This document shows positions 2,442 through 36,029 of a stretch of DNA of 64,000 nucleotides, one piece after another (the first letter of the stretch is position 1; every line of letters starts with the position of its first letter). Location of the stretch: contig JAHFCE010000006.1 of NCBI GenBank assembly GCA_023249675.1, positions 72,325 to 136,324 of the forward strand. Direction: 5' to 3'. The DNA is from Elusimicrobiota bacterium. Lineage in GTDB: Bacteria; Elusimicrobiota; Elusimicrobia; UBA1565; UBA9628. The translations under genes and the position numbers were made by a program. The notes beneath the pieces are model-generated. The model worked only from the letters and a program-made list of their open reading frames with translations, made no database searches and was not told the origin of the DNA.

Positions 2442-4439
2442 TTATAGATCGACGGCGTGCTCGGTTCCGGGGCCGAGGATGCGAAAGCGCACGGGCTGCT
2501 TGTCGGTCTGCAGCGAGCCCCAGGTCATCGCGAGGCGTTCAAGCTGGGCATCGGTGGACAGCTTCGCCGAGACGCCGAACACGACCTCGGTCGCACCCAC
2601 GGCTTGCGCCGCCTGGGTGATCGCGTAAAAGGGCTCATTGGAGACGACCAGAAGCGGCGTCACGGTCTTGCCGGACTTCTCGGCCAGCTCGAGCACGCGC
2701 GTGAACAGCTTCTGCTCTTCATGGTCCATCGTCACGGCTTCATCAACCAAGCCAAGGCCCGAGCGAATACGCGAGGTGAACACCACGAGGTCGGTGGTGT
2801 CATCATCGAGCGTCTCGAGCACCTTGGTCAGATGGTAGAGATTGTTGGGATCGCGCAGCGCGACAAGGACGCGGTGGGGCTTATCGATCTCCTCGCGCAC
2901 CATCTTGAGGTCATCGGCCTGGCGCAGGTTGAACTTCTCGTGCGGACTGTGGCCGCCGGCGTGCTGCTTCTCGTTCCAACGTTCCGAGAAAACGAAAAGT
3001 CCGAAAAAGACGGCAGTGAACACCGAGCCGGAAATCGTCGCGACCCGCTTGGTGAGAAGGTTCATGGACGCAGTCACGAACAGGATCAAGAATACCGCGG
3101 CCAGGCCGATCGGCCACTCGACGCCGTTGACGCGGATGTTGCCGGGCACCATGAACTCGCGGGGCTCGCGCTTCTTGAAGCGAAGCATCATGACGGCCAT
3201 CGTCTTGAACACGAACGACCAGACCACGCCAAAAGCGTAGGCCTCGCCGAGCAGGTACACGTCGCCGCGGCAGAGCAAAATCGTGGCGATCTGGAGGCCG
3301 ACGATGAGATTGATCAGGCGATGCGTGGTGCCGTACTTCCTATGCAGGCCGCGGAACCAGTCCACGAGGATGCCGTCCTCGGCCAGGCGGTTCAACACGC
3401 CGTTGGCGCCGACGATCGAAGTATTGGCCGCGCCCGCGAGAATGAGCACGCCCACGCCGACGACGAAACACTGCAGAAGCAGGCGCATCCAGTGGGGACC
3501 GACCACCGACATCGCCAGGCCGGAGAGAAGATTGTCGCCGTACTGGGAAATGCGCACGGAGTCGGGGATGATCATCACCGCGAAGAAGCTGACCGCCGAG
3601 GTGAGCAACATGCTGTAGATGAAAATCACCAACCCCGCGCGCTCGAGATTCTTGATCTTCGGGGCCTCGACCTCGCGGTACACCTGGGCCAGGGACTCCT
3701 CTCCGCTCATCGCGAGTAAGGAGTGGCCAAAGGCCATGATGATGCCGACGGCCCCGATGGGCTTGAGCCAGGAAACGCGCGCCGCCCAGCCCAGGCCCTC
3801 CTCGCTGAACGTGAGCGAAAACGGAGGCAGAACGCCGCCCCGGACCCACACCGTGTAGCCGCACCAAATGATCATGACCGCGCCCATCACGGTGGTCATC
3901 TGCATGATCTTCAGAGCCTTATCGCTCGACTCGTGAATGCCCTTGATGTTCTCCCACCAGAAGTACATCGTCGCCGCGACGGCGAAGAACACCGCGAACG
4001 AATGCGGATCCAGGTGCCAGCCGATGCGCAGGTAGGGAAAGAGGTTGTTGAGCAGGCCGGAGAGGTACTGGCCCGCCGAGACGGTCGAAATCGGGCCGGT
4101 CAGGATATAGTCGAACATCAGCGCGGCGGCCGAAAGCTTGGCAAGCTTGCCACCCATCGCCTCTTTGACCACCTTGTAGACGCCACCGCGCACGAACATG
4201 GAGCAGGACTCCATGTACACCGCGCGGATCGCGTAGGAGAAGAGCATGACACCGAGAATGAACCACGGAGCGGCGGGCCCGACCGCCTGCTCGACGATGC
4301 CGCCGATATAGTAGGCGGTGGAAGCCAGGTCGCAGAGGACGATCGCGGCCGCGCGCCAGAAGGAGATAAACGACAGCATGGCGGTCGTCAGGACGACGAC
4401 TTCCGTGACGCGTCGCCCCGGGCGGGGCTCAGGCTTCAA
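2442..4439 (-). CDS. APC-superfamily amino acid/cation transporter with a C-terminal universal stress protein (UspA-like) domain
   Basis: 665 aa. About 12 predicted TM helices with APC-type sequence features, followed by a soluble roughly 150-aa C-terminal alpha/beta domain resembling USP. Its start overlaps the stop of the upstream PtsN-like gene. Confidence 0.75.
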   Translation of the reverse strand: MKPEPRPGRRVTEVVVLTTAMLSFISFWRAAAIVLCDLASTAYYIGGIVEQAVGPAAPWFILGVMLFSYAIRAVYMESCSMFVRGGVYKVVKEAMGGKLAKLSAAALMFDYILTGPISTVSAGQYLSGLLNNLFPYLRIGWHLDPHSFAVFFAVAATMYFWWENIKGIHESSDKALKIMQMTTVMGAVMIIWCGYTVWVRGGVLPPFSLTFSEEGLGWAARVSWLKPIGAVGIIMAFGHSLLAMSGEESLAQVYREVEAPKIKNLERAGLVIFIYSMLLTSAVSFFAVMIIPDSVRISQYGDNLLSGLAMSVVGPHWMRLLLQCFVVGVGVLILAGAANTSIVGANGVLNRLAEDGILVDWFRGLHRKYGTTHRLINLIVGLQIATILLCRGDVYLLGEAYAFGVVWSFVFKTMAVMMLRFKKREPREFMVPGNIRVNGVEWPIGLAAVFLILFVTASMNLLTKRVATISGSVFTAVFFGLFVFSERWNEKQHAGGHSPHEKFNLRQADDLKMVREEIDKPHRVLVALRDPNNLYHLTKVLETLDDDTTDLVVFTSRIRSGLGLVDEAVTMDHEEQKLFTRVLELAEKSGKTVTPLLVVSNEPFYAITQAAQAVGATEVVFGVSAKLSTDAQLERLAMTWGSLQTDKQPVRFRILGPGTEHAVDL

Positions 4440-33165: not shown

Positions 33166-33256
33166 CGCGCCTCCTTAATGTCAAATCCGCGGTGAGTCTA
33201 TCGGATTTGACGGAAGACCGTCAATCCCGCGCTCATGACAGAAACGCCCCGGCATC

Positions 33257-33285
33257 TTGACAGAAACCCGTTTCCAAGCTATTCT
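33257..33285 (+). promoter_or_regulatory. sigma70-type promoter for the AbiEi-like gene: -35 TTGACA (33257-33262), 17-nt spacer, -10 TATTCT (33280-33285)
   Basis: Read directly from the sequence. Consensus -35, ideal spacer and 4/6 on the -10. The ATG is at 33312. Confidence 0.55.
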
Positions 33286-33288
33286 AGT

Positions 33289-33310
33289 TAAGTAGCGATT
33301 AAGCTACTTA
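33289..33310. promoter_or_regulatory. palindromic operator-like inverted repeat TAAGTAGC-gattaa-GCTACTTA overlapping the predicted TSS of the AbiEi-like gene
   Basis: 8-bp perfect arms (33289-33296 and 33303-33310) separated by 6 nt, ending 1 nt before the start codon. AbiEi antitoxins are known autorepressors that bind inverted repeats. Confidence 0.45.
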
Positions 33311-33311
33311 T

Positions 33312-33923
33312 ATGAAATGGCCAGAAACGCATAGAAAGCTCGCCGCCTCGGGGCTGCTCGCGTTCACCGATCGGGAATTCCGGGCGGTGACCGGCTCGAC
33401 GCCCGTCTCGGCCAAGTTCCTGCTGATCCGCTATACGAAGAGCGGGCTCCTGCGGCGCCTCAGACGCGGCCTGTATGCCGTGGAGGGTGAGTTGCCGTCT
33501 CAATGGGCTCTCGCCAACCGCCTCTACAGGCCCTCCTACATCTCCCTCGAAACGGCTTTGTCCTACCACCACCTGATTCCGGAGACCGTCTATTCCATCA
33601 CCTCCGTGACAACCCGCGGCACGCGCGAGTTCGATGTGACGGGGACCAGCTACAGCTACAGGACGATCAAGCGCCAAGCCTTCTTTGGCTACCGCGCTGT
33701 CCAGAGGAACGGGGAGACTTTTCTGATCGCCGAGAAGGTCAAGGCGCTCGCCGACTATCTCTATCTCATCTATCTGAAAGGCGCGAAGGTCAACAGCAGG
33801 CTGCGCCTAAAAGAAGTCCCGCGCCGCGAGCTCATCGAATGCTTGGCGGCATTCGAACACCCCGGGCTCGTCGATTGGTACAAAAATGATCTCAAGATCC
33901 CAGATCACCGAATTCAGCACTAG
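33312..33923 (+). CDS. type IV toxin-antitoxin AbiEi-family antitoxin-like transcriptional regulator
   Basis: 203 aa. N-terminal wHTH-like segment, positioned immediately upstream of and overlapping an AbiEii-type nucleotidyltransferase gene. Confidence 0.65.
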   Translation: MKWPETHRKLAASGLLAFTDREFRAVTGSTPVSAKFLLIRYTKSGLLRRLRRGLYAVEGELPSQWALANRLYRPSYISLETALSYHHLIPETVYSITSVTTRGTREFDVTGTSYSYRTIKRQAFFGYRAVQRNGETFLIAEKVKALADYLYLIYLKGAKVNSRLRLKEVPRRELIECLAAFEHPGLVDWYKNDLKIPDHRIQH

Positions 33924-34611
33924 CTGGCAGACGCAGGAGCTGAGCGTCGTGCGGGAGTATGTCCAGCATGTCCTGCTGGACATCCTCTTCCAGATCAAAG
34001 GCGTCGACGCCAAGCTGGCCTTCAAAGGAGGCACGGCCCTGCGCCTGCTGCGCAACAGCCCGAGGTTCTCGGAGGACCTCGACTTCACCGGCTGGGTCAA
34101 GCCCTACCACGTGGGGGAGTGGCTCAAGCAGACCGCCAAGGAAGCCTCGCGGCATGGGCTGGATTTCAAGATGGTGGAGTCCAACGAGACCTCCGGCGGA
34201 TGGTTCGCCCTCATGGACACGCAGGTCTACGACTGGCCAGCGCGCATCGAGTGGAACGTCTCCCTGCGCGCATCAGGCAAGGCGGTGCCTCATGAGACGA
34301 CACTCGTGACGTCCCCGTTGTGGACGTCGTACTCATTGACAGCACTCGAGACGGACGAGATGGCTTCGGAGAAGATCCAGGCTCTGCTTCGCCGAAAAGA
34401 ACCGCGCGACTTTTACGACCTCTACTTTCTCATGCGCGCGCGTCTCGGCATCAAGAAGATTGTCGCCGCCAAGCCGGATTTGCTGCGCGAAACCGCCAAG
34501 CTCAACGTCAAAGAGGTCGAGCGTGAGCTCAAAGAGTTCCTTCCCCGCAACCAGCTAGCCATCGCCAAGCAGCTACGCGAGGCCCTGACGCGGGAGCTCG
34601 AACGCCTGTGA
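33886..34611 (+). CDS. nucleotidyltransferase AbiEii/AbiGii toxin family protein (DUF1814)
   Basis: Pol-beta-type nucleotidyltransferase motifs KGGTALRL ... SEDLDF and the family's C-terminal RDFYDLYFL block. It overlaps the upstream antitoxin-like gene by 38 nt. Confidence 0.8.
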   Translation: MISRSQITEFSTSWQTQELSVVREYVQHVLLDILFQIKGVDAKLAFKGGTALRLLRNSPRFSEDLDFTGWVKPYHVGEWLKQTAKEASRHGLDFKMVESNETSGGWFALMDTQVYDWPARIEWNVSLRASGKAVPHETTLVTSPLWTSYSLTALETDEMASEKIQALLRRKEPRDFYDLYFLMRARLGIKKIVAAKPDLLRETAKLNVKEVERELKEFLPRNQLAIAKQLREALTRELERL

Positions 34612-34650
34612 TCGCGCGGCGAGCGTGTCTTGCGCGCTGTTACCTAACGC

Positions 34651-34659
34651 TGTATACTA
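34651..34659 (+). promoter_or_regulatory. extended -10 promoter element TGTATACT upstream of the second two-gene module, embedded in nested inverted repeats (GTTACC...GGTAAC; CGCT...AGCG)
   Basis: TGnTATACT lies 27 nt upstream of the ATG at 34686. GTTACC (34639-34644) and GGTAAC (34675-34680), plus CGCT/AGCG, flank it symmetrically. Confidence 0.35.
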
Positions 34660-34671
34660 ATAGCGAATTCG

Positions 34672-34682
34672 TTTGGTAACCG
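34672..34682. repeat. 11-bp direct repeat TTTGGTAACCG, copy 1 (copy 2 at 35706-35716), bracketing the second nucleotidyltransferase module
   Basis: Exact 11-mer found twice, immediately 5' of the 34686 gene and 36 nt 3' of the 35670 stop. An inverted copy TTACCAAA lies at 35675-35682. Confidence 0.4.
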
Positions 34683-34685
34683 AAC

Positions 34686-35012
34686 ATGGATCCCATCAAA
34701 GGCGTGCTGGCGGAAGAACTCGTGAACTCCAAGCGGATGTTGAAGCGCCACGGAGAGGCGCTTTCACGCCTGCCGAAGGGCAGCCTCGTCGCGAAGAAGA
34801 TCAAGGGGGGCGTCTTTCATTACCTCGCCGCGCGAGAAGACGGCAAGGTCCGCTTTCATTACAAAGGGAAGCTGTCGGCCGCCGAAGTGGACAAGTATCA
34901 AGAGGCCAAGCAGCTGCGCAGAAAGTACGTTTCCCAAATCTCAAAGCTCAAGAAGCAGGTGAAATTCCTCGAGCGCGCACTCCATGAAAGAAAAAGAAAG
35001 CGCGCCGGTTGA
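34686..35012 (+). CDS. hypothetical small basic protein (108 aa), predicted partner/antitoxin-like component of the downstream nucleotidyltransferase-fold protein
   Basis: ORF with a Lys/Arg-rich coiled-coil C-terminus. It overlaps the downstream gene by 29 nt, suggesting translational coupling. No family recognised. Confidence 0.5.
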   Translation: MDPIKGVLAEELVNSKRMLKRHGEALSRLPKGSLVAKKIKGGVFHYLAAREDGKVRFHYKGKLSAAEVDKYQEAKQLRRKYVSQISKLKKQVKFLERALHERKRKRAG

Positions 35013-35670
35013 TCTGTGCCTGGAAGTCCTAAGGCGGCTGGACCGCGCCGGCGTGCTCGAGGAGCTCGTGCTCGTCGGAAGCTGGTGCACTCATTTCTAC
35101 AATCGCTATTTCGAGGGCAAGGCCAAGCTCTCCGCCCTCCGGACGCGCGACATGGACTTCCTGGTGCGCCGACCTCCTCGCTTCAAGGTAAAGGTCGAAG
35201 TCTCCACCCTACTGAAGGACCTCGGCTTCCTTCCAGACCTCCGGCCGGAGGGCTACGTCAGCTTGAGCCACCCAGATTTGATCATCGACTTTCTGATCGC
35301 CGAGAGGGGGAAAGGTTCCGAGATGGCGATCCCGATCGAGGCGCTAGGCATCCGCGCCCAGCCGCTGCGTTTTCTCGACTTCCTCACGCGCGATACGATC
35401 GTCGTGAGCATCGACGGCCTCGATTTGCAGCTGCCGCATCCGGCCAACTTCGCCCTTCACAAGCTCATTATCAGCAGCCGTCGACCAAAGCCCGAGAAGC
35501 GCGAGAAAGATCTCAGACAGGCTCTCGAGATTCTCGACGTCCTCAGAGATCTTGGCCGCGGAGAAGAGATTCTCTCCAAGTTCGCGGATATGCCCGCTGG
35601 CTGGCGCAAAATCGCGATTACGGTGCTCAACGACGCGGACCGGCACGATATTTCACGATTCTTGCAGTAG
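34984..35670 (+). CDS. nucleotidyltransferase-fold protein (minimal pol-beta-like NTase motif GS...DxD), uncharacterised family
   Basis: 228 aa. LVLVGSWCTHFY ... RTRDMDFLV matches the hG[GS] ... [DE]h[DE]h nucleotidyltransferase signature. A C-terminal roughly 110-aa helical extension is present. Confidence 0.6.
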   Translation: MKEKESAPVDLCLEVLRRLDRAGVLEELVLVGSWCTHFYNRYFEGKAKLSALRTRDMDFLVRRPPRFKVKVEVSTLLKDLGFLPDLRPEGYVSLSHPDLIIDFLIAERGKGSEMAIPIEALGIRAQPLRFLDFLTRDTIVVSIDGLDLQLPHPANFALHKLIISSRRPKPEKREKDLRQALEILDVLRDLGRGEEILSKFADMPAGWRKIAITVLNDADRHDISRFLQ

Positions 35671-35705
35671 AGATTACCAAACAGCAGGAGCTGATCCATT
35701 GCGCA

Positions 35706-35716
35706 TTTGGTAACCG
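35706..35716. repeat. 11-bp direct repeat TTTGGTAACCG, copy 2
   Basis: Identical to 34672-34682. Confidence 0.4.
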
Positions 35717-35732
35717 CCCGCCCTGCTCGAAC

Positions 35733-35761
35733 TTGACCCGTCGCTTGCGCTCGTCTATACT
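35733..35761 (+). promoter_or_regulatory. orphan near-consensus sigma70 promoter TTGACC-17 nt-TATACT about 195 nt upstream of tRNA-Gly
   Basis: -35 at 35733-35738, 17-nt spacer, -10 at 35756-35761. No protein gene follows before the tRNA. The downstream region is AT-rich with a short TCGAC/GTCGA hairpin and a T-run. Confidence 0.4.
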
Positions 35762-35867
35762 GTCTACAACCCTGGCGAGAGTTGTCCCAGGATCAGGCAT
35801 TAGGTCTTTGATATCTCGACTGCAAGCAGGAATTTTCGCGCCGAGATCAACAGCCGATTTTTGAAAC

Positions 35868-35890
35868 CTCGACAAAAAGTCGACAAAAAT
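35868..35890. repeat. tandem 11-nt repeat (C)TCGACAAAAAG / TCGACAAAAAT with phased A-tracts, followed by a T6 run
   Basis: Two adjacent copies, each containing a SalI-like GTCGAC/TCGAC palindrome and an A5 tract. They sit in the locally AT-rich segment just upstream of the tRNA. Confidence 0.4.
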
Positions 35891-35955
35891 TGTTTTTTAA
35901 GAGCCATTCCAAACGCTCATCACTCTTAAAAAGTAGTTATTAAATAAACACTTTC

Positions 35956-36029
35956 GCGGGTGTAGTTCAATGGTAGAACGAGAGCTTCCCAAGCTTTAGA
36001 CGTGGGTTCGATTCCCATCACCCGCTCCA
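35956..36029 (+). tRNA. tRNA-Gly (anticodon CCC)
   Basis: Manually folded cloverleaf. Acceptor GCGGGTG/CACCCGC, D-arm GTTC..GAAC, anticodon stem AGAGC/GCTTT with loop TTCCCAA (anticodon CCC), short 4-nt variable loop, T-arm GTGGG-TTCGATT-CCCAT and an encoded CCA. Confidence 0.9.

What the first reader, a model, noticed from the sequence alone, without database searches (positions are those of the whole stretch)
34639..35716. Second module is bracketed by exact 11-bp direct repeats TTTGGTAACCG and has an inverted-repeat-embedded extended -10
The 11-mer occurs at 34672-34682 (just 5' of the 108-aa gene) and at 35706-35716 (just 3' of the NTase-fold gene). An inverted copy lies at 35675-35682. 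The upstream copy is part of a GTTACC...TGTATACT...GGTAAC symmetric arrangement around an extended -10. Either these are cognate operator half-sites for the small basic protein, or they are a target-site-like duplication marking the second pair as an independently inserted cassette.
Basis: seen in the sequence. Interest (0 to 1): 0.55.

Follow-up and report, generated by a model that had tools for sequence, protein, structure and literature searches.

The report
Conserved operator repeats of NTase cassette
The two 11-bp repeats are not insertion scars but arms of a deeply conserved promoter-embedded inverted repeat, most likely the operator, of an uncharacterised two-gene nucleotidyltransferase cassette found in many uncultured bacterial phyla.

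Summary
TTTGGTAACCG occurs exactly twice in the window, at 34672-34682 and 35706-35716, each in an intergenic spacer (P about 0.003 by chance).

Each copy is the right arm of a roughly 44-bp interrupted inverted repeat, (G)TTACC-N-AAC, 22 nt, GTT-N-GGTAAC, with arms 35 bp apart. IR1 (34639-34682) straddles the -10 of the operon promoter. IR2 (35673-35716) starts 3 nt after the NTase stop codon.

The same element, with the same spacing and the same promoter register, precedes homologues of the 108-aa gene in 63 of 66 genome loci from 10 or more phyla. It also accounts for 28-31 of 39 exact pattern hits in metagenomes.

Relatives define a cassette of about 1.1 kb (about 34630 to 35716-35732) that holds both repeats. 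L095 keeps the AbiE pair but lacks the cassette and has no copy of the repeat. L220 has the cassette with no AbiE sequence in its 72 nt upstream.

The target-site-duplication reading is therefore refuted. The operator reading and the independent-cassette reading are supported. Binding by the 108-aa protein is inferred, not shown. The odd feature is IR2's position: most relatives carry it in tandem upstream of the -35.

The parts
34630..34635 (+). -35 hexamer TTGCGC of the cassette promoter P1, and the left edge of the cassette
   Evidence: It lies 10 nt before the TTACC arm. TTGACA-like hexamers (5 or 6 of 6 matches) sit at that position in 40 of 54 aligned relatives. Homology with L220 begins at 34629, and homology with L095 ends there. 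At 3 of 6 matches it was not flagged by the consensus scan.
34639..34648 (+). IR1 left arm GTTACCTAAC, inside the -35/-10 spacer
   Evidence: Positions TTACC..AC are invariant or nearly so in 63 relatives.
34653..34658 (+). -10 hexamer TATACT, in the loop of IR1
   Evidence: It lies 13 nt after the TTACC start, giving a 17-nt spacer. The best TATAAT match is at +13 in 33 of 54 relatives, and TAnnnT is present in 61 of 63 IR1 loops.
34671..34682 (+).
   Evidence: GT..GGTAA is invariant or nearly so in 63 relatives.
34686..35012 (+). Gene for the 108-aa basic protein (pI 10.5), DUF6788-like, the presumed regulator or antitoxin
   Evidence: ORF. 72 homologues. 1038 clusters at 50% identity. Model pLDDT 91.6, helix / 3-stranded sheet / helix. 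Charge.
34984..35670 (+). Gene for the 228-aa NTP_transf_8 nucleotidyltransferase, overlapping the upstream gene by 29 nt, the presumed toxin or effector
   Evidence: PF12281, E 1.7e-28. GS and DxD residues invariant. Fold nearest to NTases including MenT1 and ANT(2'')-Ia. Partner of the 108-aa gene in 61 of 68 genome loci.
35673..35682 (+). IR2 left arm ATTACCAAAC, starting 3 nt after the NTase stop codon
   Evidence: The same placement, 3-7 nt after the stop, is seen in L220, L015-17, L018 and L019.
35705..35716 (+).
   Evidence: TTACC-to-GGTAA spacing is 35 bp, as in IR1.
34630..35732 (.). Approximate extent of the independently acquired cassette (P1, IR1, 108-aa gene, NTase gene, IR2). The right end is uncertain, between 35716 and 35732.
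   Evidence: The L095 empty site and the L220 left boundary.
35733..35761 (+). Native promoter-like site TTGACC-17-TATACT on the tRNA-Gly side. This is flank, not cassette.
   Evidence: It aligns with TGGACC...TATAAT in the empty-site relative L095.

Best explanation
Each 11-mer is the right arm of an interrupted inverted repeat, (G)TTACC-N-(A/T)AC, 22 nt, GT(A/T)-N-GGTAAC, with arms 35 bp apart. This repeat is the family-wide cis-regulatory site of operons that pair a basic protein of about 105 aa with an NTP_transf_8 nucleotidyltransferase.

IR1 sits on the operon's sigma-70-type promoter. Its left arm lies in the -35/-10 spacer, the -10 lies in its loop, and its right arm lies between the start site and the ATG. 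A protein holding both arms would occlude RNA polymerase.

The most likely binder is the 108-aa protein itself, alone or with the NTase. That would give negative autoregulation of a toxin-antitoxin-like pair, as in AbiE.

IR2 is a second copy of the site without promoter elements. In most relatives it lies in tandem just upstream of the -35. In this lineage it lies at the 3' end of the cassette, about 1 kb away. There it most likely acts as an auxiliary operator through cooperative binding or looping, or is retained as the cassette's end.

Shown: the sequence, its conservation, its geometry, its specificity to this gene family, and the cassette boundaries.
Inferred: the identity of the binding protein, repression, toxin-antitoxin behaviour, and the role of IR2.
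For: - Both copies share arms and 35-bp spacing while their loops are unrelated.
- IR1 with a -35 and -10 in fixed register was found in all loci of 58-88% identical homologues fetched from at least 6 unrelated neighbourhoods.
- It was found in 63 of 66 genome loci from Elusimicrobiota, Omnitrophota, Planctomycetota, Nitrospirota, Armatimonadota, Chlamydiota, Lentisphaerota and others.
- Spacing is 35 bp in 54 of 63 IR1 and 46 of 49 IR2. The core TTACC..AC / GT..GGTAA is invariant, while flanking bases vary by lineage.
- The -35 is at -10 and the -10 at +13 relative to TTACC.
- Specificity: in 350 kb of loci the only other copies precede a second homologous gene (L044) or form a promoter array in L089.
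- Of 39 exact metagenome hits, 28 directly precede such a gene, 2 precede a degraded one and 1 is a downstream IR2.
- In IR2 copies after the stop codon in five lineages, the arms are conserved and the loops have fully diverged.
- L021 and L027-31 place IR2 upstream of a divergent gene, where it cannot be a terminator.
- The protein is very basic (30 K+R against 11 D+E, pI 10.5), with a confidently modelled conserved 3-stranded sheet.
- Precedent: AbiEi and Rv2827c autoregulate NTase toxin operons through one or two pairs of promoter inverted repeats (PMC7319586).
Against: - There is no binding or expression data.
- The 108-aa model matches no known DNA-binding fold. The best PDB hit is prefoldin beta at E 0.07, and the integrase arm-binding domain scores only E 0.5.
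- It is not obvious how so small a protein spans half-sites about 12 nm apart.
- The window's -35 (TTGCGC) is weak, and the generic promoter scan did not call P1.
- IR2 is dispensable. It is absent in L003-L014, L032 and L033.
- Its 3' position could be a neutral relic.
- Eight metagenome hits and many viral-contig hits have the pattern without the gene.
Confidence: 0.7

Rival explanations
1. Target-site duplication: the 11-mers are copies of the target made when the second gene pair was inserted.
For: Direct orientation and intergenic positions on both sides of the pair. The pair is indeed an independently acquired cassette.
Against: - The syntenic empty site in L095 has no copy of the 11-mer, nor any GGTAA, between AbiEii and tRNA-Gly.
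- The same sequence flanks homologous genes at every unrelated location.
- The upstream copy is 42 nt inside the left boundary defined by L095 and L220.
- Each copy has an inverted partner at identical spacing.
Confidence: 0.02
2. RNA elements: the repeats act as hairpins in the transcript. IR1 would be a leader that sequesters the translation start, and IR2 a 3' stabiliser or terminator.
For: - The arms can pair. Some IR2 copies in relatives fold better than shuffles (L018 z -4.0, L015 z -3.1).
- IR2 lies in the 3' UTR in this lineage.
- IR1's right arm covers the position where a ribosome-binding site would be.
Against: - The left arm of IR1 lies between the conserved -35 and -10, so it is not transcribed from P1.
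- The arms are conserved in sequence rather than covarying.
- The window copies fold no better than chance (z -1.6 and -1.7).
- No T-run follows IR2, and no terminator was called there.
- Most relatives place IR2 upstream of the promoter.
- There is no Rfam match.
Confidence: 0.08
3. Recombination sites: the inverted repeats are recognised by a recombinase supplied in trans (attC-like) and mobilise the cassette. IR2 marks the cassette end.
For: - The cassette ends at or just after IR2 and begins at the -35.
- IR2 is found either before the promoter or after the operon, as a circular permutation would give.
- Some arms fit the attC cores RYYYAAC / GTTRRRY, for example ACCTAAC in IR1 and GTTAGGT in L018 and L019.
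- The module occurs in many unrelated contexts.
Against: - No integrase or cassette array is nearby. The neighbours are housekeeping genes and a tRNA.
- IR1 is locked to promoter geometry in nearly all loci.
- Many loci have IR1 only.
- The window's right arms (GTTTGGT, ATTTGGT) break the attC core consensus.
- There are no hits in plasmid or phage collections.
Confidence: 0.1
4. Chance: the 11-mers are an unrelated coincidence in AT-richer intergenic DNA.
For: 11-mer pairs within 2 kb are common in this window: 428.
Against: P about 0.003 for the two spacers. The composite pattern appears in 0 of 100 shuffles. The element is conserved across phyla.
Confidence: 0.01

Closest known systems
AbiE (AbiEi/AbiEii) and M. 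tuberculosis Rv2827c-Rv2826c, type IV toxin-antitoxin systems with nucleotidyltransferase toxins
   Same: - Both are bicistronic operons with overlapping genes: a small upstream partner and a downstream Pol-beta-fold NTase.
- The promoter carries one or two pairs of inverted repeats within about 130 nt of the start codon, overlapping the -35 and -10. The upstream protein uses these for negative autoregulation (PMC7319586).
- An authentic AbiE pair sits immediately upstream in this window.
   Different: - The NTase is PF12281 NTP_transf_8, not PF08843/DUF1814, and has no PADLOC AbiEii hit.
- The partner is a 108-aa helix-sheet-helix protein with no wHTH or COG5340 domain.
- The half-sites are about 10 bp and 35 bp apart, rather than 23-bp repeats 3-13 bp apart.
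- The second repeat is relocated to the 3' end of the operon in this lineage.
MenT/MenA (MenAT1) nucleotidyltransferase toxin-antitoxin systems
   Same: The NTase model's second-best solved structural neighbour is the MenT1 toxin (8an5_B, E 5.6e-5, TM 0.42-0.51). Both are two-gene operons.
   Different: Sequence identity is about 14% and the TM-score only moderate. ANT(2'')-Ia and an uncharacterised NTase score equally well. tRNA-modifying activity is untested.
Auxiliary operators and DNA looping (lac O1/O2, gal OE/OI, deo); from general knowledge
   Same: There is a primary operator on the promoter plus a second copy of the same site at a distance, here about 1034 bp away, beyond the coding region.
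   Different: There is no evidence of looping here. In most family members the second site is adjacent (53-60 bp), not distal.
Integron attC sites; from general knowledge
   Same: Both are imperfect inverted repeats at the 3' end of a promoter-bearing toxin-antitoxin-like cassette. There is partial resemblance to the RYYYAAC / GTTRRRY cores.
   Different: There is no integrase or array. The primary copy is 5' of the genes and embedded in a promoter. The consensus is broken in the window's right arms.

Membership tests
Target-site duplication of an inserted element | The unoccupied site in a relative carries exactly one copy of the repeat | tested here: not met
   The L095 AbiEii-to-tRNA-Gly interval (219 bp) has no TTTGGTAACCG and no GGTAA.
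Target-site duplication of an inserted element | The repeats abut the insert boundaries, and their sequence differs between independent insertions | tested here: not met
   The left boundary is at about 34629/34630, whereas the upstream 11-mer is at 34672. The same arms are found in all unrelated contexts.
Promoter-embedded operator of an autoregulated toxin-antitoxin-like operon | Dyad-symmetric site overlapping the -35/-10 of the operon's own promoter | tested here: met
   The left arm is in the spacer and the -10 is in the loop. The register is fixed in 54 aligned relatives.
Promoter-embedded operator of an autoregulated toxin-antitoxin-like operon | The site co-occurs specifically with the regulator gene | tested here: met
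   63 of 66 genome loci. 28-31 of 39 exact metagenome hits. No other copy in the 64-kb window. The genome-wide count in the source genome could not be made, because only the window is available.
Promoter-embedded operator of an autoregulated toxin-antitoxin-like operon | The encoded protein binds the site and represses transcription | not testable with these tools
   Needs EMSA or footprinting and reporter assays.
AbiE type IV toxin-antitoxin system (for the second pair) | The toxin is a DUF1814/AbiEii NTase and the antitoxin is an AbiEi wHTH protein (COG5340) | tested here: not met
   The 228-aa protein hits PF12281 only. The 108-aa protein has no hit. PADLOC returns nothing for either protein.
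Pfam NTP_transf_8 (PF12281) | Score above the gathering threshold, with NTase G[SG] and DxD residues | tested here: met
   100.5 bits against a cut-off of 26.3. G32, S33, D56 and D58 are invariant in 29 homologues.
Pfam DUF6788 (PF20586) | hmmscan score above the gathering threshold | tested here: not met
   There is no PF20586 hit for the window protein at E up to 1, and only 4 of 33 relatives hit it (best E 0.033). Precomputed tables list it as weak. Best treated as DUF6788-like.
Toxin-antitoxin system (generic) | The toxin arrests growth and the partner neutralises it | not testable with these tools
   Only the operon architecture (29-nt overlap, small basic protein plus NTase) and the MenT1-like fold are available.
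Intrinsic terminator (for IR2) | G+C-rich stem followed by a T-run | tested here: not met
   No terminator was called at 35673-35716. The sequence that follows is CCCGCCCTGCTCG.
Integron attC site | RYYYAAC...GTTRRRY cores, position 3' of the cassette ORF, an integrase or cassette array nearby | tested here: not met
   The right arms GTTTGGT and ATTTGGT break the core. IR1 is 5' of the genes. The neighbours are housekeeping genes.

The most novel reading that the evidence does not exclude
The roughly 105-aa family (helix, 3-stranded sheet, long helix; no solved homologue) may be a new class of sequence-specific DNA-binding regulator. It would read two GGTAAC half-sites held exactly 35 bp apart, like a coiled-coil caliper, with a recognition core unchanged across 10 or more phyla. 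The unit P1-IR1-gene-gene-IR2 would move as a cassette. Its terminal IR2 would be a circular permutation of the usual tandem operator and would work by looping over the operon.
Probability: 0.3. Interest if true: 0.65.

Novelty: new variant of a known kind. Interest (0 to 1): 0.5.

Why it matters
It supplies a testable cis-element and a likely regulator for a widespread two-gene nucleotidyltransferase module. For that module I found no literature, no PADLOC or NCBIfam model, and no solved structure.

Three features are unusual for toxin-antitoxin autoregulation: the near-invariant GGTAAC core, the fixed 35-bp half-site spacing across distant phyla, and a partner protein with no recognisable DNA-binding fold. 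Together they offer a clean system for studying operator recognition.

The case also shows that "direct repeats bracketing a gene pair" can be duplicated operators rather than insertion scars.

Tried and rejected
- Target-site duplication: rejected by the empty site in L095 and the boundary in L220.
- Known RNA family: Rfam finds only the tRNA.
- RNA hairpin: window folds have z about -1.6, and the arms show no covariation.
- Depletion of GGTAAC in the window as a signal: 3 observed against 7.1 +/- 2.7 in shuffles, not significant.
- Solved-structure homologues by sequence: none for either protein.
- Fold match for the 108-aa model: nothing below E 0.05.
- Literature on DUF6788, NTP_transf_8, PF12281 or GSU2403: nothing relevant.
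- Plasmid and phage collections: no homologue of the 108-aa protein.
- Viral-contig pattern scan: at least 120 hits, none of the 80 retrieved loci with the gene. Mostly coding or unrelated contexts. An excess at the canonical gap length is left unexplained.
- The first genome scan with the broad alignment failed for lack of a conserved stretch. It was repeated with a closer alignment.
- IR2 as operator of the adjacent promoter at 35733-35761: that promoter is native to the tRNA side (L095). Other lineages have no co-directional gene after IR2 (L018, L019), so this is not the general role.
- The 16-mer shared by the AbiEi and NTase coding regions: L095 lacks it and L220 keeps 15 of 16 without AbiE, so it is probably coincidence.
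Full report
**Observation**

The 11-mer TTTGGTAACCG is exact at 34672-34682 and 35706-35716, and occurs nowhere else in the 64-kb window even with one mismatch. TACCAAAC at 35675-35682 is its partial reverse complement.

A bare 11-mer pair within 2 kb is not remarkable here: the window holds 428 such pairs. The context is what makes this one unusual.
- Both copies lie in the only two intergenic spacers around the gene pair. Those spacers share an 11-mer or longer in 0.3% of 200,000 shuffles.
- GGTAAC/GTTACC occurs three times in 64 kb, always at these sites.
- Each 11-mer has an inverted partner at the same distance. TTACC starts at 34640 and 35674, and GGTAA starts at 34675 and 35709, so the spacing is 35 bp in both. 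The sequence between the arms is unrelated.
- The composite pattern occurs twice, against zero in 100 shuffles.

The real unit is therefore an interrupted inverted repeat of about 44 bp, present twice: IR1 at 34639-34682 and IR2 at 35673-35716.

**Genes**

- 33312-33923 and 33886-34611 encode a standard AbiEi/AbiEii pair, by Pfam and by many PADLOC models.
- 34686-35012 encodes a 108-aa, very basic protein (pI 10.5).
- 34984-35670 encodes a 228-aa NTP_transf_8 nucleotidyltransferase (PF12281, E 1.7e-28) that overlaps the upstream gene by 29 nt.
- tRNA-Gly(CCC) is at 35956-36029.

The second pair has no hit in NCBIfam, in PADLOC or among solved structures by sequence, and I found no literature on it. 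Precomputed tables label the small protein DUF6788 (weak). A direct hmmscan does not confirm this: the window protein has no hit, and only 4 of 33 relatives hit it weakly. I call it DUF6788-like.

A profile of the family finds 1038 clusters at 50% identity, nearly all stand-alone proteins of about 100-110 aa.

**Comparative evidence for IR1**

Homologues of the 108-aa protein at 58-88% identity were traced to contigs with at least six unrelated neighbourhoods. Every one carries the same arrangement upstream: TTGnnn, 4 nt, (G)TTACC-N-AAC, TAnACT in the loop, GTT-N-GGTAAC, then the ATG.

A scan of one genome per species gave 68 loci from Elusimicrobiota, Omnitrophota, Planctomycetota, Nitrospirota, Armatimonadota, Desulfobacterota, Chlamydiota, Lentisphaerota and others. 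In 61 of them an NTP_transf_8 gene follows directly.
- Of the 66 loci with enough upstream sequence, 63 have IR1.
- The TTACC-to-GGTAA spacing is 35 bp in 54 of those 63.
- TTACC..AC and GT..GGTAA are invariant or nearly so.
- The two bases between them vary by lineage: GTTTGG in Elusimicrobiota, GTT[AG]GG in Omnitrophota, GTATGG in Planctomycetota and Nitrospirota.
- Anchored on TTACC, a TTGACA-like hexamer (5 or 6 of 6 matches) sits at -10 in 40 of 54 loci.
- The best TATAAT match sits at +13 in 33 of 54, which gives a 17-nt spacer.

The window fits this exactly, with TTGCGC at 34630 and TATACT at 34653. Its -35 is weak, and the generic promoter scan did not call it.

The left arm therefore lies between the -35 and -10, and is not transcribed from this promoter. 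The -10 lies between the arms. The right arm lies just before the start codon.

**Specificity**

In 350 kb of related loci, the only additional copies were of two kinds:
- a second homologous gene in L044;
- four extra promoter-plus-repeat units in one Nitrospiria contig, L089.

An exact scan of the metagenome collection with TTACCAAAC-N21-24-GTTTGGTAACC gave 39 stretches:
- 28 lie directly upstream of a gene matching the family profile (E below 1e-36);
- 2 lie next to a degraded copy;
- 1 (L220) is a downstream IR2;
- 8 are unexplained, about the number I estimate from chance.

A looser scan of viral contigs returned many hits, none with the gene. Most are in coding or unrelated sequence. An excess at the canonical gap length is unexplained.

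**IR2**

In 49 of 66 genome loci and 11 of 29 metagenome loci, a second complete repeat lies in tandem just upstream. It has the same 35-bp spacing (46 of 49) and usually no -10-like loop. The -35 sits between the two repeats, and the left arms are 53-60 bp apart.

The window's lineage differs. There is no room upstream, because the AbiEii stop codon is 28 nt before the left arm. IR2 instead begins 3 nt after the NTase stop codon.

The same placement, 3-7 nt after the stop, occurs in L220, L015-17, L018 and L019/L026. Their small proteins are 63-81% identical to the window's, and L220's NTase is 92% identical. In these copies the loops have diverged completely while the arms are kept. Some close relatives have IR1 only (L003-L014).

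IR2 is thus a conserved but movable and dispensable second copy of the site. It is not followed by a T-run and was not called as a terminator. The window copies fold no better than shuffles (z about -1.6). In L021 and L027-31 it lies upstream of the promoter, next to a divergent gene. That rules out a terminator role there.

**Cassette boundaries and the empty site**

Homologues of the downstream SpoIID/TPR protein led to syntenic contigs.

L095 has the same order as the window: peptidase M17, GTP cyclohydrolase I, zf-CDGSH, Urate_ox_N, AbiEi, AbiEii, tRNA-Gly, SpoIID. It lacks the second pair.
- Its AbiEii-to-tRNA interval is 219 bp, against 1344 bp in the window.
- That interval contains no GGTAA and no copy of the 11-mer.
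- Left-flank homology ends at about 34629.
- Right-flank homology resumes at the promoter-like TTGACC-17-TATACT (35733-35761), which aligns with TGGACC...TATAAT in L095. That promoter therefore belongs to the tRNA side.

L220 carries the second pair next to the same tRNA-Gly and SpoIID, at 79% identity over 5 kb. Its homology to the window starts exactly at 34629. The 72 nt available upstream are unrelated to AbiEii.

L093 has different genes at the same spot.

The second pair is therefore an independently acquired cassette of about 1.1 kb. It begins at its own -35 and ends at or just after IR2, and both repeats lie inside it.

**Proteins**

The 108-aa protein models confidently (pLDDT 91.6) as helix 3-28, a three-stranded sheet at 33-61 that carries most of the invariant residues, and helix 65-107. 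No solved structure matches significantly. The best hit is prefoldin beta at E 0.07, and an integrase arm-binding domain scores E 0.5.

The NTase models at pLDDT 92.5. Its nearest solved neighbours are nucleotidyltransferases: 5uvd, the MenT1 toxin (E 5.6e-5), ANT(2'')-Ia, TM1012 and TglT, at TM-scores of 0.4-0.5. The GS and DxD catalytic residues are invariant.

**Mechanism**

The best-supported reading is negative autoregulation. A protein bound to both arms of IR1 would cover the -10 and the start site. The cognate binder is most likely the small basic protein, because the site and the gene co-occur almost exclusively.

The precedent is AbiEi and Rv2827c, which repress NTase-toxin operons through one or two pairs of promoter inverted repeats (PMC7319586).

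IR2 probably adds cooperative binding. In this lineage that would require looping over about 1 kb. Alternatively, IR2 may be kept simply as the cassette's end. The arrangement P1-IR1-genes-IR2 is a circular permutation of the usual IR2-P1-IR1-genes. That hints at a circular or tandem intermediate, but this is speculation.

Binding, repression, toxicity and looping are all inferred. Overall confidence is 0.7.

**Verdict**

It differs in having an uncharacterised regulator fold and an unusually conserved, fixed-spacing operator. Interest: 0.5.

Noticed in passing
L089:1175-2234 (Nitrospiria contig CAKKRC010000054): Four extra complete promoter-plus-inverted-repeat units lie 260-440 bp apart, upstream of other small ORFs. 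Each has TTGGCC at -10 from TTACC and similar loops. The 108-aa gene there (2995-3324) has no NTase partner. This may be a small regulon or a proliferating promoter unit.
   Followed up: partly
window 33720-33735 and 35290-35305: An exact 16-mer, TTTCTGATCGCCGAGA, is shared by the AbiEi and NTP_transf_8 coding regions (FLIAEK and FLIAER). L220's NTase keeps 15 of 16 without AbiE. L095's AbiEi lacks it. It is probably coincidence, though micro-conversion is possible.
   Followed up: partly
window 33257-33321: The AbiE pair has its own promoter-like site, TTGACA-17-TATTCT (33257-33285). It is followed by the palindrome AAGTAGC-N6-GCTACTT (33290-33308), as expected for AbiEi autoregulation.
   Followed up: no
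window 35733-35955: A strong promoter-like site, TTGACC-17-TATACT, lies about 190 nt upstream of tRNA-Gly(CCC). The leader is AT-rich and contains TCGACAAAAA twice. The site and leader are partly conserved in L095 and L220. IR2's GGTAA starts 24 nt before this -35, one helical turn more than in the usual tandem layout.
   Followed up: partly
window 33230-35955; L093, L094, L095, L220: The interval between Urate_ox_N and tRNA-Gly is a variable hotspot. It holds GlnA-XFP-GT2 in L093, HTH plus AbiE in L095, AbiE plus the cassette in the window, and the cassette in L220 (only 72 nt of upstream sequence available there). L095 and L094 also carry duplicated fragments of the tRNA-Gly 3' end downstream of the tRNA, which look like att sites.
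   Followed up: partly
L096-L175 (viral contigs): The degenerate repeat pattern occurs in many viral contigs without any homologue of the 108-aa gene. The canonical gap of 22 nt is over-represented: about 28 unique sites, against 3-8 for each other gap length. The cause is unresolved.
   Followed up: partly
L022-L024:3950-4980 (Omnitrophota): The 108-aa gene with IR1 is followed by an unrelated 133-aa ORF rather than an NTP_transf_8 gene, and it sits next to a HigB/HTH pair. The small protein is therefore not strictly tied to the NTase.
   Followed up: no
window 34686-35012: The Pfam label DUF6788 in precomputed tables is not reproduced by a direct hmmscan. The window protein has no hit, and only 4 of 33 relatives hit it weakly. 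The family is effectively unmodelled in Pfam.
   Followed up: yes
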